This document shows positions 14,744 through 30,830 of a DNA stretch of 64,000 bases, in pieces. Below the pieces are notes generated by a model. That model saw nothing but the letters and a program-made list of their open reading frames with translations, did not search any database and had not been told where the DNA came from. The stretch's first letter is position 1; every line of letters begins with the position of its first letter. The translations under genes and the position numbers were made by a program. This DNA is from an uncultured Clostridia bacterium (GTDB lineage: Bacteria; Bacillota; Clostridia; Christensenellales; DTU072): positions 21,347 to 85,346 of the forward strand of contig CALVYG010000003.1 of the NCBI GenBank assembly GCA_944372095.1. The letters are read 5' to 3'.

Positions 14744-14767
14744 AACCAATTCCTCCGTTGAGATACT

Positions 14768-17368: not shown

Positions 17369-20300
17369 TCCTCCGTAATGATTTCGTCGTCGAATTCGAC
17401 ATTCTCGTCCATATTGCTCATAAATTCGGCAATGGAGAGCGTTTTGATAAACTTTTCAAACATTGCCGCGCTCTCAAGCACGCTGTCGCACTGTTTATAA
17501 AACTGTTTAAGCACTCTGTCGATATAACGTTTCACCACGTCGTCCCAATAGAGTTTCTTGATTGGATTCATTATAGCGTCAAACTCTTTTATTGTCATGA
17601 CGAAAGGCTTCATGGGATCGGATTTAAGATTGGTTTTCAGCTTGCTCTTAAGTTCTTCAAATTCCTTCCTGCGGGAGCGAAAAAACGCATCTTGTCTGCT
17701 CATTTTGTTATCCTGCCCCTGTACGAGCGTTCCCCTTGCGCTGAGCGTTGAGAGCATGTTTTCGTAAAACTTTATACTTTCTCCTGCAAATTTTTCGGCG
17801 GCTTTGGTAAATTCAGAATAACTGTTTACGACGCCTTCTCCGCCTTCGGATTTACATTGCGAATAATTCGGGCATTTATTGCAATCGCGTGCGTCACTGC
17901 AATCGAGAAATACGTTACGCCTGCTGTTAAAACGAACAACTTTATCCTTGTCGGAATCATCGCGCCTGCCTTTATATATGGAATTGACGAACATTTTCTC
18001 ATATACTTTTCTCATCGCGTTGATATACACAAAATCTGCCTTGGTAAAATCTTTGTCCGTTCCGAATTCCGCGCTGAACTCATCCGCTGCATGGTCAATA
18101 TCCGTCCTGTCAACCTCCTCGGTGCATAATCTGTAGAGAATTAAATAGAATTTTTCAAGCTTATTGACATTGCCTTCAAACGAAATATCTTCTTTTGCCT
18201 CGGAAGTCTGTACGTTCTCGCGGCTTTCCTCAGGTACGGAAACTATACCCGTCGTCTCCCCCATCCACTGCGTGAACATAAGCATTTCGTTGGCGAAAAA
18301 GTTGATTACAAATCCACTCATATCGTTTAACGGAACGAATGATATTATATTGATGGACTGCTCCTGGCTTGCAGGTCTGATACGGTCAATACGCCCTATC
18401 CTCTGCTCCATTTTGAGAGGGTCGTAATTGATGTCGAAATTGATTATTGTATTGGCTTTCTGTAAATCGACGCCTTTTTCATAACGCTTAGGGTCTATTA
18501 TAACAAGAAGATTGCCTCTGTATCGGTTTATATCGTCGGTCTGCTCGGAAACTCTCCAGCTCTGCTTTACACTGCTTATACCGTAACGCTCGAAAGCCTT
18601 ATCGAATTTTTTCTTCGTAGATTCATTTATCGCACCGAGTTTTTCCGTCAACGGACTGCATCCCTGATAAGCAAACCACTTCGTGATAATATCGCGGTAT
18701 CTCCCGTCAGCAAACAACAGCACCATGTTGTTTATATTGCCCAAAGAAGCATCGGTGCCTTCCATGAGCTTATTTACCAACGCGAGTTTATACTCTATCA
18801 TATTTTCGTCCCCTATCTGCACCGATTCGTAATAGCTGTGCTGCGGCAAATGATGTTCGTCTCCTCCACTCATGGAGTCGTTTATGTATGCGAAAAGTTG
18901 CTTTGCGGCAGCAAAACGCTTTTGCTTTGAAGCTTCCGTACCTTTCAATGTTCCGTAGTTTGGCAATGATTCGATATCCACCTCGCCGCTATGCAATGCA
19001 GATATATCCTTATTCCTCGTCGTAAGATAGGAATCGAAAAACCTGTCTATACGTTGCAGATATATTACGTTTCCGTTGCGCTTTGGCCATATGGGCAGAT
19101 TGCGATATCTTTCCATCTTTCCGCTCTTGAGCATATCCGTAACGCTCGCATCGGGAAAGTTCCCGAGATTGTAAGTCTGATGACGCGTGTGGCGGATACC
19201 GTATTTTCTGTATGTGTTATACCATCTGCGCGGACCATCTTTGAGAACAAGCATATCCCTTATCCTCTTTATTGGCTCATTATTTTCTCCAATGAAATCC
19301 TCTTCAAATCTCAGCCTTATAGGGTTATCTAGAAGTGCGCGGAACACTACTCGGGTGCGCATATCCGACGTAGGTTCTATACCCTTCATTAGTTCCAAGA
19401 TTCCGTCGTTTAACAACAACGAATTCACGTCATCCAGGCGTTGGTCTATCGCTCCGTCCTCATGCTTGGTTTCAAGTTTATATGCAGAAAGAAGGTTCAT
19501 TACCACCTCGTTTATCGACATATACGAGAAATGACTCAGAAGATAATTTTTAATGTTTTCGGCATCAGAAGCGTTCTTTTCGATATATTGCGTGTGCATG
19601 TACGGGAAAGCATATTTGTTCCCCGCGCTGTTTTTGGGTGCTTCGCGCAAATATTCGGAATGATGATCCGTAAAAAACTCGGCGGCAATTTCGGTAATGC
19701 ATTTATAAACGCTTTGCCTTATGTCGTCGATCGATTTCGGATCTGCCGTATCAAGATCTCGCGAGAGAACTTCGTAAGTTTCCGCATCCTTGTTGCACGC
19801 AAGTAAAGTCAGGAGATAAAAATCTACCATATCCGACTTTATCGGAGTCGCCGTGAGAAATATTTTACGTTTGGCTTTGTCCGCCAAGTCCTTGAGTTTT
19901 TTATATAGACTTGTTTTTTCTATGAAATAATAATCATCGAATAGTTCGTATCTGTTAAATTGCTTCGCGGGATATTTTTCTACGAATTCGGCTTGCCTTA
20001 AATGGAAATCGTCCGTGTTTACCTTCGCTCGTACGTCGATATAGTCATGGACTTCATCCACAATCACGGTTTGATATGCTGCGTCAATAAAAAAATCGAT
20101 GACTTTGTACGATTCGTAATAAGGAATTATTCCTTCGCCATCCTGAGTGGAATATTCGTGTCTATAATTTTTTATCTCCGGCGCAAGTTCATGATTCAAA
20201 AACGGCGTCGTGGCTCCGGTTTGGGAATCCGTTGAAGATATCGGCACCACGAGAATGGGATATTTCTTGCTTAATCCACCCGAAATACGGGCGCTTTCTT

Positions 20301-21258
20301 CGGGATGCATAGTAAGGAATTTCCCGAGAAGCGCGTAAAGCGACGCCAGCTCCGCCTCCAACAAAGCAATGTATTTTCTGTTAAAATTCTCTACTCTCCT
20401 GAATACGGATTCTAGCTGGCGCTCACCATTAGGCACGGACCTCATATAATCCGCTACGGCTTTACTTGAACCGAATTTTAGCGTGAGTTCGGCGTTAAAC
20501 TTCTCACTTGCCAAAACTATCTTCTCTGCCGTCGCGTCATACCTCAATCCGTCGATATCCAAACCCACATCACTGAAAGAATTTTTTAACGCGTCTATGA
20601 CGCAATATATATCCTTTTTGAAATAATTTATAAGTACTTCCGCAATATCTCTGCCCGAAGAATCATCTTGACTGTGCGTTATCGTAAGAACAGGAGCGGC
20701 TTCGTTCTCGGCTAAACGCGCTCCTTTCGTCGTTATTCCGAAACCGATTTCGCTTCTGAACGCCTCGAAAACGCTGATGTAAAAATCGCTAATACATGAA
20801 AGGCTCTTTACTTCGGGAAACGTCACGCCGTTTTGGGTATATTTCTTTATCCCGAATTTCTCTTCCAACTCGTATTCCCACTTGCGAGACATTATTTCAT
20901 TAGGCACGATTATGAGCAGTGACCTTAATTCGTTACGGCTTGCGAGTTCCGATATAATCATGCCCGCTTCTATCGTCTTTCCCATACCCACCTGATCGGA
21001 TAATATACCGCTCTTGTTCAAGTTGAATACAAAATCGTATACCGCTTCTTCCTGATAGGAATAGTAACTGTGATCGCTTTTCTGCCCGAACCAGTTAAAA
21101 CGGTTATAATAATCCTCTTTCAAACGCAATTCCTGCCTGCTTTCGACTTTGCTTACTTCTTTGAGCAGTTCAGTAATTCTATGAATTTGTTCTTCGCTCG
21201 AATCCTCTACCGCCGCCTTTTCGTGTTTCGGCATTTCAACATCGTATTCGCTTAACAT
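17365..21258 (-). CDS. SNF2/RAD54-family (superfamily 2) helicase-like ATPase, 1297 aa, with large insertions and a Cys-rich C-terminal module
   Basis: ATG 21258 with GGAGAAAA upstream. Motif I LSDQVGMGKTIEAG; Ia LLIIVPNEI; II VIVDEVHDY; III IFLTATPIKSDMVDFY; V-VI GVDLQKANTIINFDINYDPLKMEQRIGRIDRI. Confidence 0.9.
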   Translation of the reverse strand: MLSEYDVEMPKHEKAAVEDSSEEQIHRITELLKEVSKVESRQELRLKEDYYNRFNWFGQKSDHSYYSYQEEAVYDFVFNLNKSGILSDQVGMGKTIEAGMIISELASRNELRSLLIIVPNEIMSRKWEYELEEKFGIKKYTQNGVTFPEVKSLSCISDFYISVFEAFRSEIGFGITTKGARLAENEAAPVLTITHSQDDSSGRDIAEVLINYFKKDIYCVIDALKNSFSDVGLDIDGLRYDATAEKIVLASEKFNAELTLKFGSSKAVADYMRSVPNGERQLESVFRRVENFNRKYIALLEAELASLYALLGKFLTMHPEESARISGGLSKKYPILVVPISSTDSQTGATTPFLNHELAPEIKNYRHEYSTQDGEGIIPYYESYKVIDFFIDAAYQTVIVDEVHDYIDVRAKVNTDDFHLRQAEFVEKYPAKQFNRYELFDDYYFIEKTSLYKKLKDLADKAKRKIFLTATPIKSDMVDFYLLTLLACNKDAETYEVLSRDLDTADPKSIDDIRQSVYKCITEIAAEFFTDHHSEYLREAPKNSAGNKYAFPYMHTQYIEKNASDAENIKNYLLSHFSYMSINEVVMNLLSAYKLETKHEDGAIDQRLDDVNSLLLNDGILELMKGIEPTSDMRTRVVFRALLDNPIRLRFEEDFIGENNEPIKRIRDMLVLKDGPRRWYNTYRKYGIRHTRHQTYNLGNFPDASVTDMLKSGKMERYRNLPIWPKRNGNVIYLQRIDRFFDSYLTTRNKDISALHSGEVDIESLPNYGTLKGTEASKQKRFAAAKQLFAYINDSMSGGDEHHLPQHSYYESVQIGDENMIEYKLALVNKLMEGTDASLGNINNMVLLFADGRYRDIITKWFAYQGCSPLTEKLGAINESTKKKFDKAFERYGISSVKQSWRVSEQTDDINRYRGNLLVIIDPKRYEKGVDLQKANTIINFDINYDPLKMEQRIGRIDRIRPASQEQSINIISFVPLNDMSGFVINFFANEMLMFTQWMGETTGIVSVPEESRENVQTSEAKEDISFEGNVNKLEKFYLILYRLCTEEVDRTDIDHAADEFSAEFGTDKDFTKADFVYINAMRKVYEKMFVNSIYKGRRDDSDKDKVVRFNSRRNVFLDCSDARDCNKCPNYSQCKSEGGEGVVNSYSEFTKAAEKFAGESIKFYENMLSTLSARGTLVQGQDNKMSRQDAFFRSRRKEFEELKSKLKTNLKSDPMKPFVMTIKEFDAIMNPIKKLYWDDVVKRYIDRVLKQFYKQCDSVLESAAMFEKFIKTLSIAEFMSNMDENVEFDDEIITEE

Positions 21259-21280: not shown

Positions 21281-22429
21281 TTATCGTGTTTTATTTTTTA
21301 TGAAGCCCGCACGCAAACTGCCTACATACAATTCGCCATTAAAGAGACTCACCTTATTGCTGGTCATTTCAAGGACGAAACTGCGTTCAGTAACCTCGCG
21401 CATCCTGTCTTTGTAGCGCCTTATAATTTCCGCTCTCGCATCGGTGATCTTGACGTAACGCAACTGTCTTTCGTTATCCTCCAATATAAGGTTAAAGTGT
21501 GCGTTTTCGTTAAACAGTTCGCCGTCCGACTGAGACTTAATCTCGGAAACGGGATAGGTATAGCACACCTTTTCCGAACCCGTATGCGATTTATAATATA
21601 CGTACAATACGTTATTAAAAGACTGTATCGTCGTTATATCGAAACCAACCTTAAAGCCAAATCGACACACACTCCCGGGATTCCCTAAACGCAATTTACA
21701 AACCCGGTTTTCGGATACCCAAAGTATATCGCCGCCGTCTGAAACTATAAGCGGTTCTCTGACAAACTCTCCGTTTTCGATATTAAATTCACCATTTCCT
21801 ATCATAACCGTTTCTATGCGGCGTTTGTCGGGTACAAAACGATAATACCCGAGTTTCTCGTCATGAATAACAAATATATTTGAACCTATACATGATACGA
21901 AACTGCTTGTCGCATACGTAGACGGGAGTTCGACGGCGGCCATGGGTTTAAGCTTTATCTTCCCCGCAATGTCTATTAAATAAACGGTAAGGTTGCACTT
22001 GTCTTTCTCCGAGGCGATTGCCACAAGATAGTACCCGACGCCTGTCTCCTGCGGAAGACATATGATACCCCATGCCCTAACGGTTTCTCCGGGATACAAC
22101 ACGCGATTGGCGTCATAGATAATATATCCGTTCGCATCCAACGCGAACACGGCACCGTTTAACCAAAGTTCGGGCAGACCTTCTTCGGACATGCGACGAC
22201 TGTAAACGTACCTGACGTCTCCGGGTCCTATGACGCAGTTATTCCCTATGTCGCCGTTTGTAAGCAGCCGGAACTTGCAATCAACAAGGGTATTTTTCCG
22301 ATCCACATATTGCTTCCAATCGTTAAACTCACCCACTATCTCCTGTCCGTATGCAGAAGAACGCACGCTAAGTTTCGACGTATAGAACAGCTTTTCTTTT
22401 TTAGTTGCTTTATAAAAGCATTTCAGCAT
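21281..22429 (-). CDS. Hypothetical beta-rich protein (382 aa), possibly propeller-like
   Basis: ATG 22429 with GGAGAGAGGA upstream. Gaps of 14 and 22 bp to its neighbours. I recognised no catalytic motif. Confidence 0.6.
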   Translation of the reverse strand: MLKCFYKATKKEKLFYTSKLSVRSSAYGQEIVGEFNDWKQYVDRKNTLVDCKFRLLTNGDIGNNCVIGPGDVRYVYSRRMSEEGLPELWLNGAVFALDANGYIIYDANRVLYPGETVRAWGIICLPQETGVGYYLVAIASEKDKCNLTVYLIDIAGKIKLKPMAAVELPSTYATSSFVSCIGSNIFVIHDEKLGYYRFVPDKRRIETVMIGNGEFNIENGEFVREPLIVSDGGDILWVSENRVCKLRLGNPGSVCRFGFKVGFDITTIQSFNNVLYVYYKSHTGSEKVCYTYPVSEIKSQSDGELFNENAHFNLILEDNERQLRYVKITDARAEIIRRYKDRMREVTERSFVLEMTSNKVSLFNGELYVGSLRAGFIKNKTR

Positions 22430-22443: not shown

Positions 22444-24978
22444 TCAGCCCCTCGTAATCATGATGTTTTCTCCGTAACGATCTTCATTTCTGAGTCCCCT
22501 GTTGTTTAGAAGAATTGTATATATATCCTGCTCGCTCCCCTCGGCAAATCTGCGCTTATAGTCGCACAGATCTTCTTTTGTAAAATAACTTGCCAACGGC
22601 GATTCCTTGCCGTTCAAGTCGAGCCTTTCTATTATAAACTGTTCCAATCGCCTGTTTATCGGTGCGTCTTTAAGCATTTCCAATGACATATATCCTTTAC
22701 TGTCAGTGGGTTTCATGATCTCGGCATAGCCGTAGCGATGCTCAATACAATATCTTTTCAATTCATCGTATTTATCTATGTTTAGATGATAAGCCGCAGT
22801 ACGGAAGTTTTTCATCTCTATTATGACAATTCTTCCTTTGTAGTCTTTCACAACAAAATCGGGATAATACTTGTGGTTTGCAAGCCTAGCAGAGACGTAT
22901 TCGAGCTCTGCGCTCTGTGCCTTAATGTCCGACAAAAATCCCGTTTTCGCCATAAGAGACGCAAACCTGCTCTCAAGAAAAGAGTCGCATTCAAGGGTTC
23001 TTATTTTGCCCGCGATGTCTACCTCGAGCGTGCAACGATGCTTTGTTGTCTCATCGTATTCTTTTTCTATGTCCGGAAACAGTTCGTCAAGATCCGCTTC
23101 GGGAACAATCTTTACGTTCTCGGGATATGTAATGAGCGACTCAATAAGACGGCACTTTTCCGAATCGGGAATCCGTGAAGCCACAATGCTGCGTTTTTCC
23201 CATCTTTGGTTGTTTTCTCCGCGAAGTCCTGCTTCCTCGGCGTTTTTTCCGTTAAGTTCGGCGTCCTCAAAATATTCACCCAAATTCTCTTCGAAATCAT
23301 CGTTATCGTACTCCGCATTGCCTAAGTCATTTAAGGTGTCTCCGGCGTCCTGTATATTCGTGTAATTTGTGCTTTCGGCATCTTTTTGTTGCATCGGCAA
23401 AGCATCGCTCGGGTCGGAGCTCTCAATTCCTCCTTCGTTGATAAAGTAATTATTTTTTTTTCCTGTCGAAATATTCGGATTGTCGCCGTCGCATGAAACG
23501 GGCGAATTTTTATCATCTTTAGCTGAATCTCCTAAGTCCTTTTTCTTGGCGGGGGGCGTCAATCCAAGCACTTCATATGCCTTTGGCATGGCTATGCGAC
23601 CCTGTGCCTGAATCATTAACAAGCCTTTTTTAATGAGATAAGCTTCATACTTTTGTTTGAGTACGTTATTGCTCTCGTTCATTGCTCTGGCGAGCGTATC
23701 GATACTGACGGGACCGCCGCCATACCTCTTGACGATAATGCCGAGCAATTGTCTGTCTCCCTCTTCAAGTCCGTACTTGTCTATACGGCTGCTCTTGAAG
23801 TATTCCTCAATAATGTCCGACGTAATTCTTATGTTACACTTGCGAATTTGTTCAACACTGTTGAAATGCCCCTGTAAGCGGATACCGTTTCTTTCGGCAT
23901 ACCTCACAAGCGCGTTACTGGATATCATGTTCACCATGTTGTTGGCAATCCTGGGATTATTTCTGCAACGCTTGGCTATACTCAAAGCGTCGGTGTCGTA
24001 TATACTCATGCCGCCGCGGTAAAATGATTTGGCGATAATTTGCGCAATCACATTGTCGTTGTATTCTTTAAGGCGCACAAGTATAGTGCGTTGAGTCAAC
24101 GGACCCGCAAGTTCTCCAAGCTCCGTTGTCGCACCGATGAGCGTAAAGGGCGGCAATTCTATCGTTTCTGTCCTTGCGAGTTTTCCTTTGCCCTCAGTAT
24201 ATGTAATGCAATGATCCTGCAACGCCGAATACAATAGCGACTCCGCAATTTCTTTGGGTAGCGTATGTATCTCGTCAATAAAAACTATATCTTTCGCTTT
24301 GAGAGATTTCAGCATGGCAAGCATACTGTTCATGTTTATGCCGTTTACATTGATTTCTTTGAGGCTCATCCCCATTTCATTGGCGATGATTCTCGCAAAC
24401 GTCGTTTTTCCTAAACCGTGCGACCCGTATAAAATCAAATGCGGCAATACCGTGTCCTTTAATTTGGCGGCGTTTATCAGCGTAGAAACACAGTTTACGG
24501 CATCGGATTGCCCGACATATTCCGATAACCATTGCGGCGCCATAGCGTTAAGTCTGCGGTTTTTCGGTCCATGCGATTGTTCCTTCTTTAACGGGTCTAC
24601 AATATCTATGGGTCTAAGCGACTTTCCGGTATCTTTTTGTGGCGTTTCTCTTCCATCTGCGTTGAACGATTTGTCAGATTTTTGAAAAAGCTCGTCAACC
24701 GTTTGATATTGCTTATCGGGTGCGCTATCCGCATCTCCTTTTTTTTCTTTTGCCGAATCGGCTTTAATTTTAGACTGAGCTTCATCGGCAAGCGACAGAC
24801 ACGAATTGTAGTAGCGCATATACTTTGCTCTGACTTCCCCGCCGGACAGGCTCGCTATGACCAACGCTATCTCGCATGCTTTTAGAAAGCATTTTCGCGC
24901 CCCGGCGTAATCGCCGTCGCGCATTTTTTCCTCCGCCTCGGTAAGAGATGATACTATTTGGCGTTCTTTATCCTGCAT
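22444..24978 (-). CDS. Fusion protein: N-terminal MIT-like domain + RuvB-like AAA+ ATPase with winged helix + C-terminal PD-(D/E)xK (TnsA-N/restriction-endonuclease-like) nuclease domain
   Basis: MIT-like: EAEEKMRDGDYAGARKCFLKACEIALVIASLSGGEVRAKYMRYYNSCLSLADEAQSKI. RuvB-like: HLILYGSHGLGKTTFARIIANEMG, IVFIDEIHTL, LPPFTLIGATTELGELAGPL, NPRIANNMVNMI, GLEEGDRQLLGIIVKRYGGGPVSIDTLARAM...YEAYLIKKGLL. Nuclease: YYPDFVVKDYKGRIVIIEMK (nt 22810-22869). Confidence 0.85.
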   Translation of the reverse strand: MQDKERQIVSSLTEAEEKMRDGDYAGARKCFLKACEIALVIASLSGGEVRAKYMRYYNSCLSLADEAQSKIKADSAKEKKGDADSAPDKQYQTVDELFQKSDKSFNADGRETPQKDTGKSLRPIDIVDPLKKEQSHGPKNRRLNAMAPQWLSEYVGQSDAVNCVSTLINAAKLKDTVLPHLILYGSHGLGKTTFARIIANEMGMSLKEINVNGINMNSMLAMLKSLKAKDIVFIDEIHTLPKEIAESLLYSALQDHCITYTEGKGKLARTETIELPPFTLIGATTELGELAGPLTQRTILVRLKEYNDNVIAQIIAKSFYRGGMSIYDTDALSIAKRCRNNPRIANNMVNMISSNALVRYAERNGIRLQGHFNSVEQIRKCNIRITSDIIEEYFKSSRIDKYGLEEGDRQLLGIIVKRYGGGPVSIDTLARAMNESNNVLKQKYEAYLIKKGLLMIQAQGRIAMPKAYEVLGLTPPAKKKDLGDSAKDDKNSPVSCDGDNPNISTGKKNNYFINEGGIESSDPSDALPMQQKDAESTNYTNIQDAGDTLNDLGNAEYDNDDFEENLGEYFEDAELNGKNAEEAGLRGENNQRWEKRSIVASRIPDSEKCRLIESLITYPENVKIVPEADLDELFPDIEKEYDETTKHRCTLEVDIAGKIRTLECDSFLESRFASLMAKTGFLSDIKAQSAELEYVSARLANHKYYPDFVVKDYKGRIVIIEMKNFRTAAYHLNIDKYDELKRYCIEHRYGYAEIMKPTDSKGYMSLEMLKDAPINRRLEQFIIERLDLNGKESPLASYFTKEDLCDYKRRFAEGSEQDIYTILLNNRGLRNEDRYGENIMITRG

Positions 24979-25014: not shown

Positions 25015-25599
25015 TTATTTATTTATTTCCTCACGGAGGCTTGCAAGTTTTTTCTCTATCTCGTCGTTGCTCATACCTGACTGACTTTTACCATATATTT
25101 TATTGTCAATCTCGGTATCGTCCACGTTGCTGATTTTATCCGCAAATACGCCGACCTCGTTTTGGTTAGATTCTAAAACTTCGATAACTTCCTCTGTTTG
25201 CGCGGTAACCTTTTCCATTGCTTCCTGAATTTCGTTCACAAACTTGCTCATATCCTCTGTGGTGTTTGCAGCAATACTTTTACCTATATCTCCAAGCGCA
25301 TGCACAAAATCTGTCGTCATTGCAGACATTTCTTTCATCTGCGATACAATTCTGAGATTGACCAGCATCGCAAACGTACGCTTCTTTTCCCCTATCGTCA
25401 ATTTGAGCGCTTTTTTAGCCAACTCAATCTGTTCCGGCAACGCTTCGCGCATGGCTACTTTGGCGGCATTGATATAAACTTGTTCCTGATCCTCGAGCTT
25501 TTTGATGCGCCTTTCAAGCTGGTTCATAGCCTTATTGACTGCCATTCTGCGCTCGCGCTCTTTTTCGGCCTTACTCTTAAACAAATTAGGTTTTTTCAT
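25015..25599 (-). CDS. Snf7/ESCRT-III-like (PspA/Snf7 superfamily) coiled-coil protein, 194 aa, with MIM1-like C-terminal helix
   Basis: AAGGAG SD. The helical pattern LERRIKKLEDQEQVYINAAKVAMRE..ELAKKALKLTIGEKKRTFAMLVNLRIVSQMKEMSAMTTDFVHALGDIGKSI..MSKFVNEIQEAMEKV aligns by eye with the CHMP/Snf7 core. The tail NDEIEKKLASLR fits (D/E)xxLxxRLxxL(K/R). Confidence 0.7.
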   Translation of the reverse strand: MKKPNLFKSKAEKERERRMAVNKAMNQLERRIKKLEDQEQVYINAAKVAMREALPEQIELAKKALKLTIGEKKRTFAMLVNLRIVSQMKEMSAMTTDFVHALGDIGKSIAANTTEDMSKFVNEIQEAMEKVTAQTEEVIEVLESNQNEVGVFADKISNVDDTEIDNKIYGKSQSGMSNDEIEKKLASLREEINK

Positions 25600-25655: not shown

Positions 25656-26825
25656 TTATGACTGATTGTCGGTTAAGCTTTGAACAAGCTCTTCCACAGT
25701 CGGCAGATCACATATTTTGAGCGTGGATAAAACGTTTTTATCGTTCAATTCTCTTACGGAAAGTTGTCCAAGCCTGATGTTCTGCCTTGCCATCATTTTC
25801 TCGAAAAGCATTCTGACATCCCTCGCGTTACCAAAGTATTTTCCCCTTGCGCTCTTAAGTTCCGCAAGACGATCGGTAATTGCCGTTCGGACAACCTCGG
25901 GGTCTTCCTCGAAAACAAATTTCTGTTTTTTGCAGAGTTTTATCAGAATGTTGTACATTTCTTTCGGGGCGTAATCTTCAAATTCAATCGTCCAATTAAA
26001 GCGGGAAGCAAAACCTACATTCGACTTCATGGCGGCATCCATTTCATCTGAATAACCTGCAAGTATCACCACAAAATCAGCACGGTTGTTTTCGACCGCG
26101 GTAAGCAAAACGTCTATTGCCTCCTTTCCGAAATCGCTTCCCGAATCAGCTTTATAAAGAGTATAAAACTCGTCGACAAACAATACTCCGCCTAAGGCCG
26201 AATCCACAACTTCCTGCGTCTGCTGAGCCGTATGCCCCACATACTTCCCTACTAGACCGACCCTTGCGTTTACTTCCACAAGGTGGCCTTTGCTAAGTAA
26301 CCCGAGCGCACTGAAAATATCACCCATAATTCTTGCAACGGTAGTTTTTCCTGTCCCGGGATTGCCCTTAAAAATCATGTGATTGGAAGAAGCATATATC
26401 GGAAGTCCCTGTTCTTCTCTAAACTTGTTTATGCGGATTTGCTGTATAATCTGCATAACCCTGTTTTTCACGTTATGAAGACCCTCGAGCGAATTAAGCT
26501 CTTCCAGCGCGCTTTCCAGCGAAGGCGCGGGTTTTGAGGACGAATCATCTGCTTTGGCATTGTTTTGTCCGCCTGTTTTCGCGCCGGCACAAGGGGTGGA
26601 CTTAACCACTTTACCGCCGACTTTATCTATCATATTCTTGATAGACATGGCTTGCTCGACATATGCCTGTCGCTCGCTTCCCGAAGACTGTTCCGCCAAA
26701 ACAACGGCGCTTTTCAGAGCGCGTTGCAAAAAAATCATTGCTTGATTATAATTATTTTGTTCAAGATATTTCAGCGCAGTCTCACGATTGGTGCGATATT
26801 CCTTCTTCAATTCTTCATTCGGCAT
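25656..26825 (-). CDS. MIT-like domain + AAA+ ATPase (SpoVK/CbbX/EccA-type core); Vps4-like architecture
   Basis: GGAGGG SD. N-terminus ALKYLEQNNYNQAMIFLQRALKSAVVLAEQSSGSERQAYVEQAMSIKNMIDKV has the MIT pattern, followed by a low-complexity linker. Then MIFKGNPGTGKTTVARIMG (Walker A), GGVLFVDEFYTL (Walker B), VVILAGY and GFASRF. Confidence 0.8.
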   Translation of the reverse strand: MPNEELKKEYRTNRETALKYLEQNNYNQAMIFLQRALKSAVVLAEQSSGSERQAYVEQAMSIKNMIDKVGGKVVKSTPCAGAKTGGQNNAKADDSSSKPAPSLESALEELNSLEGLHNVKNRVMQIIQQIRINKFREEQGLPIYASSNHMIFKGNPGTGKTTVARIMGDIFSALGLLSKGHLVEVNARVGLVGKYVGHTAQQTQEVVDSALGGVLFVDEFYTLYKADSGSDFGKEAIDVLLTAVENNRADFVVILAGYSDEMDAAMKSNVGFASRFNWTIEFEDYAPKEMYNILIKLCKKQKFVFEEDPEVVRTAITDRLAELKSARGKYFGNARDVRMLFEKMMARQNIRLGQLSVRELNDKNVLSTLKICDLPTVEELVQSLTDNQS

Positions 26826-26843: not shown

Positions 26844-27458
26844 CTAATTGAGTCCGTTCATCTTCTTCAATTCCGACAGTTCATTATCGAAAGATTTGTT
26901 CTCGTCGCGAACATTTTCAACAGAAATTTCTTCGGCGGACGACGTTGCGTCTTTGATTAAAGCTTCGACTTCGGGATCGACTTCAAACTGCATAGACATC
27001 GCATCCATTCCGTCGTAAGCAGCCTCCTGATTTGCCGTGCTTTCTTCTAGTCGATGCCATATATCATCTACTTTCCCCATTCCCGCAAATATATTGATAT
27101 CTTTAAAAAGATTTTGCATGCGCTTACTCACGTTATCAATAACAGACGGAAGCGAATCGTCTTGCTGTTGCTCGTAAATCATAAGCATCATTTCCGCCTG
27201 AGGTATGAATTGCTGCGCACGCATAATGGCATTGACCGTAATTTTAAGCGATTTTGCGGCAATGTTATAAATTATAGGATCCTTTTTTTGCTTTGCCTGA
27301 CGGCAAATCTCAATCATTTTATCCCTAACGCTTTCAAGCTTTCCGATTTGATTGGAAACTTTTCTGATTTCCAACCTTGTCGAGGCTTTGACTTGCAAAA
27401 CACCGGACAAATCGTCGGTGGGTCCGATATCCTTTTTATCCTTATTAAAAAAAGCCAT
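26844..27458 (-). CDS. Snf7/ESCRT-III-like coiled-coil protein, 204 aa, with acidic region and MIM1-like tail
   Basis: AGGAGA SD. Core: EIRKVSNQIGKLESVRDKMIEICRQAKQKKDPIIYNIAAKSLKITVNAIMRAQQF...VIDNVSKRMQNLFKDI. Acidic stretch: DPEVEALIKDATSSAEE. The tail NKSFDNELSELK has hydrophobics at positions 4/8/11 and K at 12. Confidence 0.65.
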   Translation of the reverse strand: MAFFNKDKKDIGPTDDLSGVLQVKASTRLEIRKVSNQIGKLESVRDKMIEICRQAKQKKDPIIYNIAAKSLKITVNAIMRAQQFIPQAEMMLMIYEQQQDDSLPSVIDNVSKRMQNLFKDINIFAGMGKVDDIWHRLEESTANQEAAYDGMDAMSMQFEVDPEVEALIKDATSSAEEISVENVRDENKSFDNELSELKKMNGLN

Positions 27459-27476: not shown

Positions 27477-28127
27477 TTATTGTTTATTCATTTTGTTCAA
27501 ACGGTCTATAGTATCCTGCAAATCCTTATCGTAAAATTCTTTTGAACTTCCCGCTGAGTTTGAGATGCCGGAACTACCGTATTTTGCGTTAATTAACCCA
27601 TCGACAAGCGGGTCCGATTCAAAATTGTCGAAAGTTTCCGAAGAAAATTCGGGCATCATCGCGTCAATTTGCATCTGCCACTCTTCAATATACTGTTGTT
27701 GCATCTCCATATCGGCGTTCATTTTCATAACATTGTTCTCGAATTCGCGCTGAGCGGACGGGTCGTACAGGAATTTCCCAGCACCGTTAATTATAGTGCT
27801 CATCGACTTATTAATCTCTTTGCAGGACGCACTCATTTCCCCCATCGCCATAACGATATCGATCTGCCCCAACACGCGCTCAAGCATCTTTTTTCTTCTC
27901 AGCGCAACTTTGACAACCGATGCGTATTGCTTATACATCATACCGTTTGAGGCACGCTTTGCTTCCGCAGCTTTATCAACGCACTCTTCGAGTTTTTTTT
28001 CAGCTTTGCCGAGTTCTGCCACAACTTTTGCGCGTTCGGTTTTAGCCGCAGTCCTGTCACGGATTTCGGCTTGGGCCTTAGCTTGCTCTTCTTCTGCACG
28101 CTTTTTCTTACTCTTAACCCAAATCAT
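27477..28127 (-). CDS. Snf7/ESCRT-III-like coiled-coil protein, 216 aa (CHMP1-like pattern), with MIM1-like tail
   Basis: AAGGAGA SD. Core: KKLEECVDKAAEAKRASNGMMYKQYASVVKVALRRKKMLERVLGQIDIVMAMGEMSASCKEINKSMSTII...REFENNVMKMNADMEMQQQYIEE. Tail: DKDLQDTIDRLNKMNKQ. Confidence 0.7.
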   Translation of the reverse strand: MIWVKSKKKRAEEEQAKAQAEIRDRTAAKTERAKVVAELGKAEKKLEECVDKAAEAKRASNGMMYKQYASVVKVALRRKKMLERVLGQIDIVMAMGEMSASCKEINKSMSTIINGAGKFLYDPSAQREFENNVMKMNADMEMQQQYIEEWQMQIDAMMPEFSSETFDNFESDPLVDGLINAKYGSSGISNSAGSSKEFYDKDLQDTIDRLNKMNKQ

Positions 28128-28172: not shown

Positions 28173-29075
28173 CTAATTGTCGTTCCTTATCGCCTGTTTG
28201 AAAGAAGAACGGGATTCCTCTTTTTCTTCGACTTCGAAATTTCTGAACGCCTTATTTAGTTCATTGTCTTTTTCCGCATTTATAGCATTCTTGAACGAAG
28301 ACTGTGTCTCCGAACGATTCCTGGAATCGGACGCAGAATATATATTCTTTTCATTATCATCAATAAGCTCCGTTTTTTCGATAAATGTAGCTTTTTTGAT
28401 ATTGAGTTCTTCCACACGCTTAGCAAAAACCTCCGGACTTGTTACCATTGAGCCATCTATTCTTTCCAAAGCATCCATCTGCCCGTCCAAAGAAATTGCC
28501 GCAAGGTTAGCGTTGTACGCTTTTACGGAAAGTAAAACGATTTCTTTTAAATTTTTAACTTGTTTGTCATATTTGTTATATTGCGTTTCGATTCTTACAA
28601 ATTCTGCACTACCTTCGGCCAAATCTTTACCTTTGAGCATTAACTCTCGCATTAAAGCTTCGAGTTCGGCTTGTTTGTTGAGATTGTCATCGATTTCTCC
28701 GACAAGAGTGGCTTGCTTGCGCTTTATTTGAATCTGCTCGTCCGTGTACAGCTCGGAGCCATGCTTGCGCGAATCATAGACAGCCTCCTTTAGCATCTCG
28801 GCACATTGGGCAAACTCTGCATCTTTCCCCGCCCTACAAAGATTGCTCATATCTCCAATAAGTTCGGAAATGCGCTTATCAATAGCTGCTTGCTTTTTGG
28901 GATTGGCATTTTTGGGACAATTCACTTTGTCCAAAAGACGAAGTATGACATTAAGATACTTTATCGTCCCATAGTTATGTTTTTCGTGCATTTCTGCAAT
29001 AAAATCGTTAACGCTTGCTTTGAATTCTATCGTATTTTTTTTGAATTTTTTTTCATAACCGAAAAGTGGTAACAT
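28173..29075 (-). CDS. Coiled-coil protein (300 aa), possibly a fourth, divergent PspA/ESCRT-III-like subunit or adaptor
   Basis: AGGAGAAA SD. Long heptad-like central region (aa ~100-230). The C-terminal tail carries a duplicated motif, SSFKNAINAEKDN / SSFKQAIRNDN. Confidence 0.6.
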   Translation of the reverse strand: MLPLFGYEKKFKKNTIEFKASVNDFIAEMHEKHNYGTIKYLNVILRLLDKVNCPKNANPKKQAAIDKRISELIGDMSNLCRAGKDAEFAQCAEMLKEAVYDSRKHGSELYTDEQIQIKRKQATLVGEIDDNLNKQAELEALMRELMLKGKDLAEGSAEFVRIETQYNKYDKQVKNLKEIVLLSVKAYNANLAAISLDGQMDALERIDGSMVTSPEVFAKRVEELNIKKATFIEKTELIDDNEKNIYSASDSRNRSETQSSFKNAINAEKDNELNKAFRNFEVEEKEESRSSFKQAIRNDN

Positions 29076-29096: not shown

Positions 29097-30071
29097 TTAT
29101 TTAGAAAGCTTTGCGCCGCATTTGGAGCAAAAATTGGTGCCTTTTTTGTACTTTGTACCGCACTCAGAACAATAAACAACATAATTGTCCGCATTGCCGC
29201 GTCTTTTATCGTCACAATCATTGTCGCGTTCGTCCGTACTGAATGTCTTTCCGTTCGTTTTATAAACAATTTTACTTTCGGAGTTCTGTGCGAGATAAAA
29301 CGGCATCATCGCGTCGACGTTTTTTTTCAAAACATCGGCATCGGAGAAGCGTCCTCTATTTTCGTTGATAGTTATCTCCGTCGACATCTTCGCACTATTC
29401 AAACGCGCACGATTTCTCGTATGCTCCGGAGAGTAGTCGAAACAGTCGATTACAAAATCCATAATGGTCAGTCCGTTAGCAACGAAACGCTTATTGAGGT
29501 CGCTTTTAATTTCTTCGGCGCATGCAAGCATTTTGGTCTGAGCCTCGATCATATCGCAGGAAGCCGCAAGAGCGGCGATCCTTGAAAGTATTACCGCGCT
29601 TGCCTCTGTACGTAAATAATCTCTCACCGACGATTTGGTTATGACGCCGTTGTCGGCATATGGCATGGAACTGACAAAACTGTAATAGTTGTCGATGACA
29701 AACTTATACTTGCCGCGAGCAATAGCGGTACAATCCACGCCGAAATCAGGATCAAAACACTTTACGGCATTAGGCCCGGCAAGTCCCCATTCCGCGTCAA
29801 AGAAAGAATTTTGATCTACTGCGTCTATGGAAATACTTTCGGATGGATAAGGCTTATTTCCGCCTATAATTTTTTTATCATTCTTATTAAACAAACCGTA
29901 AATTGTAGAAACCTTCCCGCCCATAAGCGTCTGAACTCCGCCTTCTGCTTTGACTATAAGGGTAATTCCGACATCGGGTTTAAGCACCGTATTGGGAGAT
30001 GCCCCTACTGCGGACACTTTCCAGCAAACAATTTCATCACGGAATCTTTTTTCAACTTTGATTTCAGTCAC
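29097..30071 (-). CDS. SPFH (Band-7_1 / B. subtilis YdjI-like) domain protein with C-terminal zinc ribbon
   Basis: The track ORF extends to ATG 30104, but GTG 30071-30069 lies 8 nt after GGGAGG (30080-30085). Colinear from memory with YdjI: ARGKYKFVIDNYYSFVSSM, VRDYLRTEASAVILSRIAAL, AEEIKSDLNKRFVANGLTIMDFVIDCFDYSPE. C-terminus: YCSECGTKYKKGTNFCSKCGAKL. Confidence 0.75.
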   Translation of the reverse strand: MTEIKVEKRFRDEIVCWKVSAVGASPNTVLKPDVGITLIVKAEGGVQTLMGGKVSTIYGLFNKNDKKIIGGNKPYPSESISIDAVDQNSFFDAEWGLAGPNAVKCFDPDFGVDCTAIARGKYKFVIDNYYSFVSSMPYADNGVITKSSVRDYLRTEASAVILSRIAALAASCDMIEAQTKMLACAEEIKSDLNKRFVANGLTIMDFVIDCFDYSPEHTRNRARLNSAKMSTEITINENRGRFSDADVLKKNVDAMMPFYLAQNSESKIVYKTNGKTFSTDERDNDCDDKRRGNADNYVVYCSECGTKYKKGTNFCSKCGAKLSK

Positions 30072-30165
30072 AATAAATACCTCCCGAATTGATTGTACAT
30101 GCAAACAAGGGCGGCACTAAAGAAAAAACAAAACCCCCTCATCCGTGTCTTGCAAAACTTTTTTT

Positions 30166-30194
30166 ATTATATCAACACGCGCGTTTTTTGTCAA
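30166..30194 (-). promoter_or_regulatory. Consensus sigma-A-type promoter in front of the 15-gene array
   Basis: Minus strand reads TTGACA (30194-30189), then 17 nt, then TATAAT (30171-30166). It lies about 95 nt upstream of the GTG at 30071. Confidence 0.65.
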
Positions 30195-30626: not shown

Positions 30627-30657
30627 AAAACACCGCAAATTAAGCGGTGTTTTTTTA
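30627..30657 (+). terminator. Orphan intrinsic-terminator-like hairpin
   Basis: aaaACACCGC-aaattaa-GCGGTGTttttttt. The T-tract is on the plus strand, and a weaker TTTTCTGTTT tract is on the minus strand. No convincing gene lies upstream on either strand. Confidence 0.5.
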
Positions 30658-30830
30658 TGACAAAGGGATGAGAACCCCTGATAAAATTCGCAAGTTTACT
30701 CATTGCGCAATTTTGACAATGGTTATTAAATACTGGTTAAATTCGTTTGTCCTAAAATAAGAAATTCGCTCAGACTTTCAATAAAATGTAACTTTTTCCT
30801 CTTCTCTTTATGCTTTTTCTTCTTTTTGCG

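What the first reader, a model, noticed from the sequence alone, without database searches (positions are those of the whole stretch)
25656..26825. MIT domain grafted onto a SpoVK/CbbX/EccA-clade AAA+ rather than the classical Vps4 clade
The ATPase core (MIFKGNPGTGKTTVARIMG...GHLVEV..LVGKYVGHTAQQTQEVV..GGVLFVDEFYTL...DFGKEAIDVLL...VVILAGY...GFASRF) is nearly colinear with B. subtilis SpoVK as I recall it. It is not colinear with Vps4/katanin-type AAA proteins. If the N-terminus is truly MIT-like, the 'MIT + AAA' solution for handling ESCRT-III-like polymers arose here on a different AAA+ scaffold. A second time in the same operon it arose on a RuvB scaffold. That would be convergent domain recruitment.
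Basis: partly seen in the sequence, partly recalled or inferred. Interest (0 to 1): 0.6.

Follow-up and report, generated by a model that had tools for sequence, protein, structure and literature searches.

The report
Bacterial Vps4 stand-in: MIT plus SpoVK-type ATPase
A gut Clostridia operon encodes three ESCRT-III-like membrane-remodelling proteins and two ATPases of non-Vps4 families (SpoVK/CbbX-type and RuvB-type). Each ATPase carries the small MIT "docking" domain that Vps4 uses to grab ESCRT-III, so bacteria appear to have rebuilt the ESCRT-III/Vps4 partnership on other motors.

Summary
The ORF at 25656-26825 (-) encodes 389 aa.

- **ATPase core (residues ~103-375).** It belongs to the SpoVK/CbbX/EccA family, not the Vps4 type. 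NCBIfam scores are 256, 234 and 233 bits. It has Pfam AAA_lid_6. PDB hits are CbbX at 1e-55 and Cdc48 at only 1e-5, with no Vps4. A neighbour-joining tree puts it with CbbX at 100% bootstrap. All catalytic motifs and a YVG pore loop are intact.
- **N-terminus (residues 1-76).** It models (pLDDT 88.6) as a three-helix bundle. Its best PDB matches are almost all MIT domains (TM 0.75-0.89). By sequence alone it cannot be told apart from a single TPR motif.
- **Second MIT.** A homologous MIT-like domain heads the downstream RuvB-nuclease fusion.
- **Related loci.** The same domain also heads classical Vps4-like AAA proteins that follow the same ESCRT-III-like gene family in other Clostridia and in Planctomycetota. 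One MIT module has therefore been shuffled across three ATPase scaffolds.
- **Neighbours.** Three genes are ESCRT-III/Snf7-like paralogues with C-terminal amphipathic helices. The operon also encodes an SPFH protein, an SNF2 helicase and unknown proteins. It sits beside a strain-variable defence slot.

Most likely the protein is a functional analogue of Vps4 that remodels these polymers. MIT-tail binding and disassembly are inferred, not shown. I found no prior description.

The parts
30166..30194 (-). Promoter-like site in front of the operon: TTGACA, 17 nt spacer, TATAAT, with a TG extension
   Evidence: 12 of 12 consensus matches, the best site in 18.5 kb. A terminator-like hairpin of the upstream unit lies at 30653-30627.
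29097..30104 (-). SPFH (Band_7_1, YdjI-like) protein with a C-terminal zinc ribbon. It is the first gene of the operon.
   Evidence: Pfam Band_7_1 at 5.6e-6 and Zn_Ribbon_1 at 2e-7. Conserved in all group A loci. No transmembrane segment.
28173..29075 (-). 300-aa coiled-coil protein (CC300). Relatives carry an N-terminal MGLFGY motif (MLPLFGY in the window's own copy) and occur in 1-3 tandem copies.
   Evidence: No Pfam hit. Conserved position. Not detectably related to the ESCRT-III-like paralogues by hhalign.
27477..28127 (-). ESCRT-III-like paralogue E3_216
   Evidence: hhalign to the bacterial E3 family next to Vps4-like AAAs: 99%, E 3.7e-18, over the full length. To E3_204: 97.7%. The C-terminal tail is ...DLQDTIDRLNKMNKQ.
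26844..27458 (-). ESCRT-III-like paralogue E3_204, immediately upstream of the ATPase with an 18-nt gap
   Evidence: hhalign to E3_216 gives 97.7% (E 1.9e-12) and to E3_B gives 96.4%. In L006/L008/L009 its place is taken by an MIT-less second SpoVK-like AAA gene (Walker B degenerate in the L006 copy).
26598..26825 (-). Residues 1-76 of the target protein: MIT-like three-helix bundle
   Evidence: AF2 model with pLDDT 88.6 and helices 3-22, 26-46 and 49-76. Foldseek top hits are MIT domains. Homologous to the MIT of RuvB-type and classical AAA partners.
26520..26597 (-). Residues 77-102: low-complexity linker that varies in length and sequence
   Evidence: Poorly conserved and gapped among the three full-length homologues. 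pLDDT drops to 58 at residues 71-80.
25656..26519 (-). Residues 103-389: SpoVK/CbbX/EccA-family AAA+ module. Motifs are Walker A GNPGTGKTT, pore loop KYVG, Walker B LFVDE, Arg finger SRF and sensor 2 GNARDVR, plus the AAA_lid_6 domain.
25015..25599 (-). ESCRT-III/Snf7-like paralogue E3_194. Relatives start M[GK]LFKSK (MKKPNLFKSK in the window's own copy). The C-terminus is ...DEIEKKLASLREEINK.
   Evidence: Pfam Snf7 is sub-threshold (E 0.0019; 7 of 16 relatives, best 1.9e-4). The family profile's top PDB hit is CHMP3 at E 0.1. The AF2 model's top Foldseek hits are CdvB, CHMP1B, CHMP2A/3 and Asgard ESCRT-IIIB. A C-terminal amphipathic motif is present in 10 of 12 relatives against a 5.5% background.
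22444..24978 (-). 844-aa fusion. It has an MIT-like N-terminus (residues 1-75; 24754-24978), a linker, a RuvB module (P-loop, lid, winged helix) and a C-terminal domain with a PD-(D/E)xK-like motif (E...PDF...IEMK).
   Evidence: NCBIfam RuvB at 275 bits against a cut-off of 282. Pfam RuvB_N at 1.9e-41 and RuvB_C at 1.8e-15. MIT alignment. Invariant E80, D118, E132 and K134 in the C-terminal alignment. The nuclease assignment rests on the motif only; Pfam TnsA-like_N scores E 0.05.
21281..22429 (-). Conserved 382-aa protein of unknown function
   Evidence: No Pfam, NCBIfam, PADLOC or PDB match. Conserved in position.
17365..21258 (-). 1297-aa SNF2-family helicase, DrmD/DpdE-like
   Evidence: NCBIfam DrmD at 1.2e-30, well below its cut-off. 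PADLOC DrmD at 4e-27. Conserved in group A.
14768..17368 (-). Conserved 866-aa protein of unknown function, overlapping the SNF2 gene by 4 nt
12998..14749 (-). 583-aa protein of unknown function. Probably the last gene of the cassette; a 548-aa gene follows in L006.
   Evidence: Membership in the cassette is less certain.

Best explanation
The 389-aa protein is most likely a hexameric AAA+ protein remodeller of the SpoVK/CbbX family that acts as a functional analogue of Vps4.

Proposed mechanism:
1. Its N-terminal MIT-like three-helix bundle sits on a flexible linker of about 25 residues. It docks onto the C-terminal amphipathic helices of the co-encoded ESCRT-III/Snf7-like paralogues E3_216, E3_204 and E3_194.
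2. The ATPase ring then pulls subunits through its YVG pore loop. This turns over or disassembles ESCRT-III-like polymers at the membrane.
3. The YdjI-like SPFH/zinc-ribbon protein probably scaffolds those polymers at the membrane.
4. The same MIT module on the next ATPase (RuvB core plus a putative PD-(D/E)xK nuclease) would bring a DNA motor and nuclease to the same polymer. With the SNF2 helicase, this makes the 11-gene cassette a probable anti-mobile-element system.

Shown here (computationally): the domain architecture, family placement, intact motifs, conserved gene order, and homology of the MIT modules across three ATPase scaffolds.

Inferred: MIT-tail binding, subunit extraction, membrane localisation and the defence role.
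For: - **Architecture.** MIT-like fold, variable linker and SpoVK/CbbX-type core. Walker A and B, the Arg finger, sensor 2 and the aromatic pore loop are intact and conserved in 11 orthologues.
- **Partner identity.** E3_194, E3_216 and E3_204 are mutually homologous. E3_194 gives sub-threshold but consistent Snf7 and CHMP3 hits. Its model has an ESCRT-III-like helix pattern with CdvB/CHMP top matches.
- **Coupling.** In 33 GTDB loci the same E3 family is followed or flanked by an MIT-bearing ATPase. In about 11 Clostridia loci these are the SpoVK-type and RuvB-type. In about 20 Clostridia and Planctomycetota loci it is a classical AAA with AAA_lid_3 and, in most, a Vps4_C match (7 of 10 scanned at E<=0.01; 3 above Pfam's cut-off).
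- **Fusion.** In L029 an E3-like domain is fused to a RuvB core.
- **Specificity of MIT.** The MIT HMM hits nothing but these ATPases in all the loci.
- **Tails.** A C-terminal [LIMFV]xx[LIMFV][KRQ]xx[LIM] helix occurs in 10 of 12 E3_194 and 8 of 16 group B tails, against 5.5% of control ORFs.
- **Operon.** A consensus promoter and gaps of -4 to 56 nt between genes.
- **SPFH precedent.** B. subtilis YdjI recruits PspA to the membrane (PMC8581546, cited in PMC10936438).
- **Defence context.** Strain variants carry GmrSD or a methyltransferase/PDDEXK pair in the slot next to the operon. The SNF2 protein is DrmD-like.
Against: - No experiment or complex model supports MIT-tail binding.
- By sequence profile the N-terminal domain matches TPR_2 (9 of 23, best 4.9e-4) better than Pfam MIT (1 of 23, E 0.021). 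Its PDB profile hits are dominated by consensus TPRs.
- ESCRT-III membership of the small proteins is below every curated threshold: Snf7 scores 18.3 bits against 27.3, and Foldseek E is about 0.09 with low TM.
- The tail motif is loose. It is present in only 3 of 10 E3_216 and 0 of 2 E3_204 sequences.
- Known SpoVK, CbbX and EccA substrates are not ESCRT-III-like.
- The ATPase could promote assembly or act as a regulator, like PspF, rather than disassemble.
- No PADLOC model recognises the cassette. It is absent from the phage, plasmid and IMG/VR sets. The defence role therefore rests on neighbourhood alone.
Confidence: 0.6

Rival explanations
1. The N-terminal bundle is a generic TPR-like adaptor, comparable to the TPR domain of EccA. 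It recognises some other client, for example the SPFH protein, CC300 or the unknown proteins. On this reading the ATPase is a chaperone for assembling the complex and has no ESCRT-III-specific docking.
For: The sequence profiles favour TPR_2 over MIT. Consensus TPR proteins top the PDB profile search. The exhaustive profile search recovers many multi-repeat TPR proteins. From my own knowledge and the 9lur/TIGR03922 match, EccA-family members use N-terminal TPRs.
Against: - The domain has only three helices of 20-28 residues rather than TPR-length helices. It is followed by a disordered linker.
- Foldseek ranks MIT domains first, with TM 0.75-0.89 against 0.35-0.47 for TPRs.
- The Pfam MIT model itself cross-hits TPR proteins, so the TPR signal is expected for a true MIT.
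- The domain is homologous to the N-termini of Vps4_C-bearing classical AAAs that lie directly after E3 genes.
- An E3-RuvB fusion exists.
Confidence: 0.15
2. The gene is simply this organism's sporulation SpoVK or another housekeeping SpoVK/CbbX-family ATPase. Its adjacency to coiled-coil proteins is incidental.
For: The best NCBIfam hit is SpoVK at 256 bits. The hosts are Clostridia, many of which sporulate (own knowledge).
Against: - The score is far below the SpoVK equivalog cut-off of 423 bits.
- The gene sits inside an operon with 18-56 nt gaps.
- The gene order is conserved down to ~45-50% core identity in about 11 species-level genomes.
- The added N-terminal domain is shared with the neighbouring RuvB fusion.
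- Distribution is very patchy: 3 full-length clusters in 5.8 billion proteins.
Confidence: 0.05
3. The cassette is a cell-biological machine rather than an immune system. It could be an ESCRT-like membrane-fission or vesicle/DNA-export apparatus, or one linked to division or engulfment. The SpoVK-type ATPase would recycle the polymer and the RuvB/SNF2 motors would move DNA across or away from the constriction site.
For: ESCRT-III plus an MIT-ATPase drives division and DNA-containing vesicle release in archaea (PMC7619361). RuvB is a dsDNA translocase (own knowledge). No toxin-like effector or known defence model was detected apart from the SNF2 protein. The role proposed for the target protein is the same as in the best explanation.
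Against: Distribution is sporadic across species. The operon sits beside a strain-variable slot holding GmrSD or a restriction-modification pair. It carries a PD-(D/E)xK-like motif and a DrmD-like helicase. A related locus, L004, lies next to an OLD-family nuclease and a DUF4011 helicase.
Confidence: 0.2

Closest known systems
Vps4 / CdvC (ESCRT-IV), the MIT-bearing classical AAA ATPase of archaea and eukaryotes
   Same: It has an N-terminal MIT-like three-helix bundle, a flexible linker and a single AAA+ module with an aromatic pore loop. It is encoded directly beside several ESCRT-III-like paralogues that end in short amphipathic helices.
   Different: The ATPase core belongs to the SpoVK/CbbX/EccA family: AAA_lid_6 instead of AAA_lid_3, no Vps4_C, about 17% identity to classical Vps4-like bacterial AAAs, and never grouped with them. 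It is bacterial. The operon also holds an SPFH protein, a RuvB-nuclease fusion and an SNF2 helicase.
SpoVK, CbbX (red-type Rubisco activase) and EccA (type VII secretion ATPase)
   Same: The AAA+ core is colinear and 43% identical to CbbX. The lid domain is the same, and so are the pore-loop (Y-[VI]-G-H-T) and sensor motifs.
   Different: It is below all three equivalog cut-offs. It carries an MIT-like N-terminal domain, where EccA has a long TPR domain and SpoVK and CbbX have no comparable domain (own knowledge). Its genomic context is ESCRT-III-like rather than Rubisco, ESX or sporulation.
Bacterial PspA/Vipp1 systems with accessory SPFH (B. subtilis YdjI) or AAA+ partners (PspF; the tandem AAA proteins noted by Ravi et al. 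2024)
   Same: An ESCRT-III-superfamily polymer former is co-encoded with a Band_7_1 SPFH protein and an AAA+ ATPase.
   Different: The polymer proteins here look Snf7/CHMP-like rather than PspA-like: relatives begin MGLFKSK (MKKPNLFKSK in the window's own copy), and the hits are to Snf7, CHMP3 and CdvB, not PspA_IM30. The ATPases carry MIT domains. PspF and the reported tandem AAAs do not.
Eukaryotic MIT-domain enzymes recruited to ESCRT-III (VPS4, spastin, katanin, MITD1, ULK3, calpain-7, USP8, AMSH)
   Same: One portable MIT module is attached to different catalytic scaffolds that work at the same polymer (PMC9477494). Here the scaffolds are SpoVK-type AAA, RuvB-nuclease and classical AAA.
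   Different: The setting is bacterial, the scaffolds are different, and there is no binding evidence yet.

Membership tests
SpoVK/CbbX/EccA family of AAA+ ATPases | Full-length colinear match to the family HMMs (TIGR02881, TIGR02880, TIGR03922) | tested here: met
   Scores of 256, 234 and 233 bits over residues ~104-374. PDB hits: CbbX 1.2e-55 and EccA1 2.6e-44.
SpoVK/CbbX/EccA family of AAA+ ATPases | AAA_lid_6 type lid domain | tested here: met
   PF17866 at 1.6e-9, residues 313-373.
SpoVK/CbbX/EccA family of AAA+ ATPases | Groups with family members in a tree, apart from classical AAA and RuvB | tested here: met
   Neighbour-joining tree with 100 bootstraps: family clade 100, A+B clade 0. 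The only named reference was CbbX. This is a distance tree, not maximum likelihood.
SpoVK proper (stage V sporulation protein K, equivalog) | Score at or above the curated equivalog cut-off | tested here: not met
   256.2 bits against a cut-off of 422.95. It is therefore not filed as SpoVK, CbbX or EccA.
Vps4/CdvC | N-terminal MIT domain | tested here: met
   Met at the fold level only: model pLDDT 88.6, with top Foldseek hits to CdvC, VPS4 and katanin MITs at TM 0.75-0.89.
Vps4/CdvC | Classical AAA core with AAA_lid_3 | tested here: not met
   The lid is AAA_lid_6. The Pfam AAA score is 55.6 bits, against 129-147 bits in the bacterial Vps4-like set. No Vps4 appears among the PDB hits.
Vps4/CdvC | C-terminal Vps4_C oligomerisation helix | tested here: not met
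   No PF09336 hit. It is present in 7 of the 10 classical bacterial relatives scanned; L022, L031 and L015 are above the cut-off.
Vps4/CdvC | ATP-dependent disassembly of ESCRT-III polymers | not testable with these tools
   Requires biochemistry.
MIT domain (PF04212) | Match to the Pfam model at the gathering score | tested here: not met
   No hit for the window's two proteins. One of 23 group A N-termini scores E 0.021. The best hit in the classical bacterial set is 24.6 bits against a cut-off of 30.
MIT domain (PF04212) | Free-standing asymmetric three-helix bundle of about 75 residues | tested here: met
   Helices 3-22, 26-46 and 49-76. RMSD is 1.1-2.3 A to solved MIT domains.
MIT domain (PF04212) | Homology to MIT domains of Vps4-like proteins | tested here: met
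   hhalign to the N-termini of classical AAA+Vps4_C bacterial proteins: 95.4% (E 2e-8). The RuvB-type set gives 97.4% (E 1.3e-11). Controls are <=10%.
MIT domain (PF04212) | Binds MIM elements in ESCRT-III tails | not testable with these tools
The only evidence is enrichment of the tail motif.
ESCRT-III / Snf7 (PF03357), for the neighbouring E3 proteins | Match to the Pfam model at the gathering score | tested here: not met
   E3_194 scores 18.3 bits against 27.3. Seven of 16 relatives hit, best E 1.9e-4. The family profile hits CHMP3 at E 0.1.
ESCRT-III / Snf7 (PF03357), for the neighbouring E3 proteins | Alpha1-alpha2 hairpin followed by short helices and a C-terminal tail helix | tested here: inconclusive
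   The model (pLDDT 78.5) has helices 10-51, 55-112, 118-144, 146-156, 161-169 and 178-193. The Foldseek top three hits are CdvB (probability 0.80-0.98), but E is 0.09-0.17 and TM is 0.3-0.5.
RuvB, for the second MIT-bearing ATPase | RuvB_N, RuvB lid and RuvB_C winged helix | tested here: met
   Pfam E-values of 1.9e-41, 7.3e-5 and 1.8e-15. NCBIfam PRK00080 scores 275 bits against a cut-off of 282. It is a RuvB-family core, not the housekeeping RuvB.

The most novel reading that the evidence does not exclude
Bacteria have a modular MIT-MIM recruitment code like that of eukaryotes. A Snf7-type ESCRT-III polymer acts as a membrane platform, and one portable MIT module recruits interchangeable motors to it: classical Vps4-like AAA, SpoVK/CbbX-type AAA, or a RuvB-nuclease. 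In this Clostridia cassette the code would couple membrane remodelling to DNA destruction as a previously undescribed kind of anti-phage or anti-plasmid system.
Probability: 0.35. Interest if true: 0.85.

Novelty: new variant of a known kind. Interest (0 to 1): 0.68.

Why it matters
[quoted passage not shown] How bacterial ESCRT-III-superfamily polymers are disassembled is an open question.

This locus and its relatives offer concrete, testable candidates:
- Snf7-like proteins paired with MIT-bearing ATPases in Clostridia and Planctomycetota.
- Non-orthologous displacement of the motor, from classical AAA to SpoVK/CbbX-type and RuvB-type, while the docking module is kept.

Three consequences would follow if this holds:
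- The specificity-determining part of the ESCRT-III/ATPase partnership would be the MIT-tail contact, not the ATPase clade.
- The SpoVK/CbbX family would gain a new type of client.
- ESCRT-III-like membrane machinery would be linked to nucleic-acid enzymes in a defence-island setting.

Tried and rejected
- **GTDB scan with the ATPase alone** found nothing. The E3_194 family alignment was needed.
- **Sequence search of residues 1-94 against the PDB** gave only weak TPR motif matches, so the fold had to be modelled.
- **The first tree attempts failed.** One timed out. One was invalid because saturated distances gave NaN, so its comb-like tree and bootstrap values are discarded. One search is the valid run.
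- **Plasmid, phage and IMG/VR searches** with E3_194 found nothing, so there is no evidence of carriage on known mobile elements.
- **Cluster look-up** gave no names or organism.
- **PDB profile searches** of the RuvB C-terminal domain and of the 382-aa protein were uninformative. The nuclease call rests on the motif alone.
- **Neighbourhoods of two tandem SpoVK-like database hits** (P0053, P0046) showed no PspA/ESCRT-III link. I could not show a pre-existing SpoVK-family/ESCRT-III association.
- **CC300 as a fourth ESCRT-III paralogue**, suggested by its MGLFGY start, is not supported by hhalign.
- **A separate bona fide spoVK in the genome** cannot be checked from a 64-kb window. There is none in the window.
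Full report
**1. The observation**

The ORF at 25656-26825 on the minus strand is real. It is 389 aa with an ATG start, and a GGAGGG ribosome-binding site lies 7 nt upstream. It sits in a long co-directional gene array.
- A 12/12 consensus promoter lies at 30194-30166.
- Intergenic gaps within the array range from -4 to 56 nt.

The array, in order, contains:
- an SPFH/Band_7_1 protein with a zinc ribbon (29097-30104);
- a 300-aa coiled-coil protein (CC300);
- two ~210-aa helical proteins (E3_216 and E3_204);
- the target ATPase;
- a 194-aa helical protein (E3_194);
- an 844-aa RuvB-like fusion;
- a 382-aa protein of unknown function;
- a 1297-aa SNF2 helicase;
- proteins of 866 and 583 aa of unknown function.

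**2. The ATPase core**

Residues ~103-375 match the SpoVK, CbbX and EccA models colinearly at 256, 234 and 233 bits. All three scores are well below the equivalog cut-offs of 423-467 bits.
- Pfam finds AAA (55.6 bits) and AAA_lid_6.
- Against PDB sequences, CbbX scores 1.2e-55 and EccA1 scores 2.6e-44. Cdc48/p97 reaches only ~1e-5 and Vps4 does not appear.
- I built a neighbour-joining tree of AAA cores from 57 sequences and 260 columns, with Kimura distances and 100 bootstraps. A SpoVK/CbbX family that includes this protein has 100% support. The classical bacterial AAAs described in section 5 form a separate clade at 100%. The two are never joined.
- Walker A (GNPGTGKTT), the pore loop (KYVG), Walker B (LFVDE), the arginine finger (SRF) and sensor 2 (GNARDVR) are intact. 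They are conserved in all 11 orthologues.

The protein is therefore an active-looking member of the SpoVK/CbbX/EccA family. It is not an orthologue of any of the three named proteins. From my own knowledge, this family is distinct from the Vps4/katanin group but still lies in the broad classical AAA neighbourhood. RuvB is a genuinely remote clade.

**3. The N-terminus**

Sequence searches alone give only weak TPR-like hits. I made an AlphaFold2 model of residues 1-80 from a four-row alignment.
- It has pLDDT 88.6 and three helices (3-22, 26-46, 49-76), followed by a low-confidence tail.
- Foldseek against the PDB returns almost only MIT domains in the first ~24 ranks: Sulfolobus CdvC MIT bound to CdvB (2w2u), VPS4A/B, S. 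solfataricus Vps4, katanin p60 N-terminus and MITD1.
- Most of those matches have TM 0.75-0.89 and RMSD 1.1-2.3 A. TPR arrays align poorly, with TM 0.35-0.47. Foldseek E-values are only ~0.07 because the domain is short.

The caveat is that sequence cannot separate MIT from TPR here.
- Scanned individually, group A N-termini hit Pfam TPR_2 in 9 of 23 cases and MIT in 1 of 23.
- Their profile finds consensus TPR proteins in the PDB through summed repeat matches to positions 10-37. True MITs score only E ~0.5-0.7.
- An exhaustive profile search of 1.84 billion proteins also recovers many TPR proteins.
- The Pfam MIT model itself scores 49-91 bits on those same TPR proteins, so this cross-talk is a property of MIT domains in general.

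Helix lengths, the stand-alone three-helix format, the following linker and the structural ranking all favour MIT.

**4. The second MIT and the neighbours**

The RuvB-like protein starts with a domain that aligns to the ATPase N-terminus without internal gaps, apart from a 2-3-residue offset at the extreme N-terminus. It continues with the RuvB P-loop, lid and winged-helix domains (NCBIfam 275 bits against a cut-off of 282). It ends in a conserved domain with an E...PDF...IEMK motif typical of PD-(D/E)xK nucleases. The nuclease assignment is by motif only.

The small helical proteins look like ESCRT-III:
- E3_194 gives a sub-threshold Snf7 hit (E 0.0019). Seven of 16 relatives hit Snf7, best E 1.9e-4.
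- The family profile's best PDB hit is CHMP3 (E 0.1, colinear), followed further down the list by CHMP2A (E 0.44).
- Its model (pLDDT 78.5) shows a long hairpin followed by shorter helices and a terminal helix. The top Foldseek matches are S. islandicus CdvB, then CHMP1B, CHMP2A/3 and Asgard ESCRT-IIIB. These are weak in E-value and TM, as expected for a flexible helical protein.
- The relatives begin M[GK]LFKSK; the window's own copy begins MKKPNLFKSK. From memory, this resembles the MGLFGK start of CHMP3.
- E3_216 and E3_204 are homologous to this family: hhalign 99% (E 3.7e-18) and 96%.
- The extreme C-termini carry an amphipathic [LIMFV]xx[LIMFV][KRQ]xx[LIM] helix. It is present in 10 of 12 E3_194 and 8 of 16 related tails, against 5.5% of control ORFs. 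It is much less regular in E3_216 and E3_204.
- No operon protein has a transmembrane segment.

**5. Relatives elsewhere**

Only three full-length clusters of the ATPase exist in 5.8 billion proteins. The 70%-identical one keeps the whole gene order. The E3_194 family is wider: 21 proteins and 33 GTDB species loci. Annotating these loci shows two groups.

*Group A* (about 11 species-level loci):
- These are Clostridia MAGs, including Lachnospiraceae, Oscillospiraceae, Christensenellaceae and Ruminococcus bicirculans.
- They repeat the window's cassette.
- In some, E3_204 is replaced by a second, MIT-less SpoVK-like AAA gene. The L006 copy has a degenerate Walker B and arginine finger.

*Group B* (about 20 loci):
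- These come from other Clostridia, Planctomycetota, Brocadiaceae and Hydrogenedentes.
- The E3 gene is directly followed, or in a few loci preceded, by a ~375-aa protein with an MIT-like N-terminus and a classical AAA core (Pfam AAA 129-147 bits).
- These proteins have AAA_lid_3. Seven of the ten scanned have a Vps4_C match at E<=0.01, above Pfam's cut-off in three. Three have a sub-threshold Pfam MIT hit, best 2.8e-5.

Profile-profile comparison shows that the three MIT sets are homologous over all three helices:

| Comparison | Probability | E-value |
|---|---|---|
| SpoVK-type vs RuvB-type | 97.9% | 4.5e-13 |
| RuvB-type vs classical | 97.4% | 1.3e-11 |
| SpoVK-type vs classical | 95.4% | 2e-8 |

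Unrelated helical alignments and reversed controls give <=10% and E>=0.003.
- An HMM of all these MITs hits nothing but these ATPases in every locus.
- The exhaustive search finds single-stretch N-terminal matches on all three scaffolds: P0155 classical, P0171 and P0183 with AAA_lid_6, and P0218 RuvB.
- In a Bacteroidaceae locus (L029) an E3-like domain is fused to a RuvB core.

The picture is one docking module moved between motors within a family of bacterial ESCRT-III-like systems.

**6. Context and likely role**

In strain variants of the window's own locus, the slot between the SNF-family symporter gene and the operon holds different contents:
- GmrSD in L040;
- a Dam-like methyltransferase plus a PDDEXK protein in L041;
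- nothing in L042 or in the window.

That pattern is typical of a defence hotspot. The group B locus L004 lies beside an OLD-family nuclease and a DUF4011 helicase. The SNF2 protein resembles DrmD and DpdE. No PADLOC model covers the other genes. The family is absent from the plasmid, phage and IMG/VR collections searched.

I therefore favour an anti-mobile-element function for the cassette, with moderate confidence only. A cell-biological role in membrane fission or DNA export is not excluded.

**7. Mechanism proposed for the target**

- MIT docks on E3 tails.
- The SpoVK/CbbX-type ring extracts or unfolds subunits through the YVG pore.
- The SPFH protein provides a membrane scaffold, by analogy with B. 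subtilis YdjI and PspA (PMC8581546).
- The RuvB-nuclease is recruited through its own MIT.

Architecture, homology and synteny are shown. Binding, disassembly and localisation are inferred.

**8. What is known**

The literature searches found no description of an MIT domain on a SpoVK/CbbX-type or RuvB-type ATPase. They found no description of Snf7-like plus MIT-AAA pairs in Clostridia or Planctomycetota either.
- Makarova et al. [quoted passage not shown]
- A 2025 review says a Vps4-like ATPase appears absent in bacteria.
- Ravi et al. 2024 report bacterial MIT+Vps4-like proteins only alone or with a TPR+6TM partner. They report PspA or TM-anchored Snf7 only with a tandem inactive+active AAA protein.
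- The eukaryotic precedent for one MIT module on many enzymes is well documented (PMC9477494).

**9. Verdict**

The refinement is that the MIT module is shared by descent and shuffled, not reinvented. I class it as a new variant of a known kind: the ESCRT-III plus MIT-ATPase partnership with the motor replaced, in bacteria. Interest is about 0.68. The main weakness is that ESCRT-III membership and MIT-tail binding rest on sub-threshold sequence signals, predicted folds and gene context.

Noticed in passing
L004:10001-11745; also L015-L028, L030, L031 and L034 (E3 gene followed by the AAA gene): About 20 bacterial loci from Planctomycetota, Brocadiaceae, Hydrogenedentes and other Clostridia, including the isolate 'Bacterium 1XD42-54'. 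Each encodes a Snf7-like protein directly followed by an MIT-like + classical AAA + AAA_lid_3 protein, most also with a Vps4_C match. These are bacterial ESCRT-III/Vps4-like pairs, which reviews say are absent.
   Followed up: partly
L029:8024-9835: A Bacteroidaceae MAG encodes a 603-aa protein in which an E3-like (ESCRT-III-like) N-terminal region is fused to a RuvB core. Two MIT-bearing classical AAA genes lie upstream (L029:4379-6748).
   Followed up: partly
L040:2402-4789 and L041:3120-4760, corresponding to window ~30105-30809: In strain variants of the same locus, the gap between the SNF-family symporter gene and the operon holds GmrSD (L040) or a Dam-like methyltransferase plus a PDDEXK_11 protein (L041). 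It is empty in the window and in L042. This is a strain-variable defence slot.
   Followed up: partly
L006:9115-9933; also L008:9210-9809 and L009:20-358: In some relatives the E3_204 position is occupied by a second SpoVK-like AAA without an MIT. The L006 copy has a degenerate Walker B (VVNSPY) and an arginine finger changed to lysine, so it is probably an inactive partner subunit; the L008 copy (a short ORF) keeps an intact Walker B.
   Followed up: partly
window 22444-23211 (-): The C-terminal ~250 residues of the RuvB-like fusion carry invariant E, PDF and IEMK residues, as in PD-(D/E)xK nucleases. No significant Pfam or PDB match was found.
   Followed up: partly
window 28173-29075 (-); L011:5757-7913: The coiled-coil protein family starts with MGLFGY, reminiscent of ESCRT-III N-termini, and occurs in one to three tandem copies. 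hhalign shows no relation to the E3 paralogues.
   Followed up: partly
window 1634-12967 (-): Just downstream of the cassette lie very large predicted surface proteins. One is 1393 aa with many BspA-type LRRs. Another is 2119 aa with MBG, Listeria-Bacteroides repeat and LRR domains.
   Followed up: no
window 32303-33469 (-): A protein with a long collagen-like GPTGPTG repeat followed by a beta-helix-like region. Pfam Collagen and Pel9A-like were seen in the equivalent gene of L041 and L042.
   Followed up: no
window 50292-56546 (-): A 2084-aa ORF that I did not examine.
   Followed up: no
L040-L042:5037-5189, equivalent to the window region upstream of 30194: A 50-aa gene is called between the defence slot and the SPFH gene in all three strain variants. 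Its function and reality were not assessed.
   Followed up: no
P0151 and P0153 (from the exhaustive search): The Pfam MIT and KATNA1_MIT models score 43-91 bits on ordinary multi-repeat TPR proteins. MIT/TPR cross-matching is therefore a general property of these profiles and not specific to this domain.
   Followed up: yes
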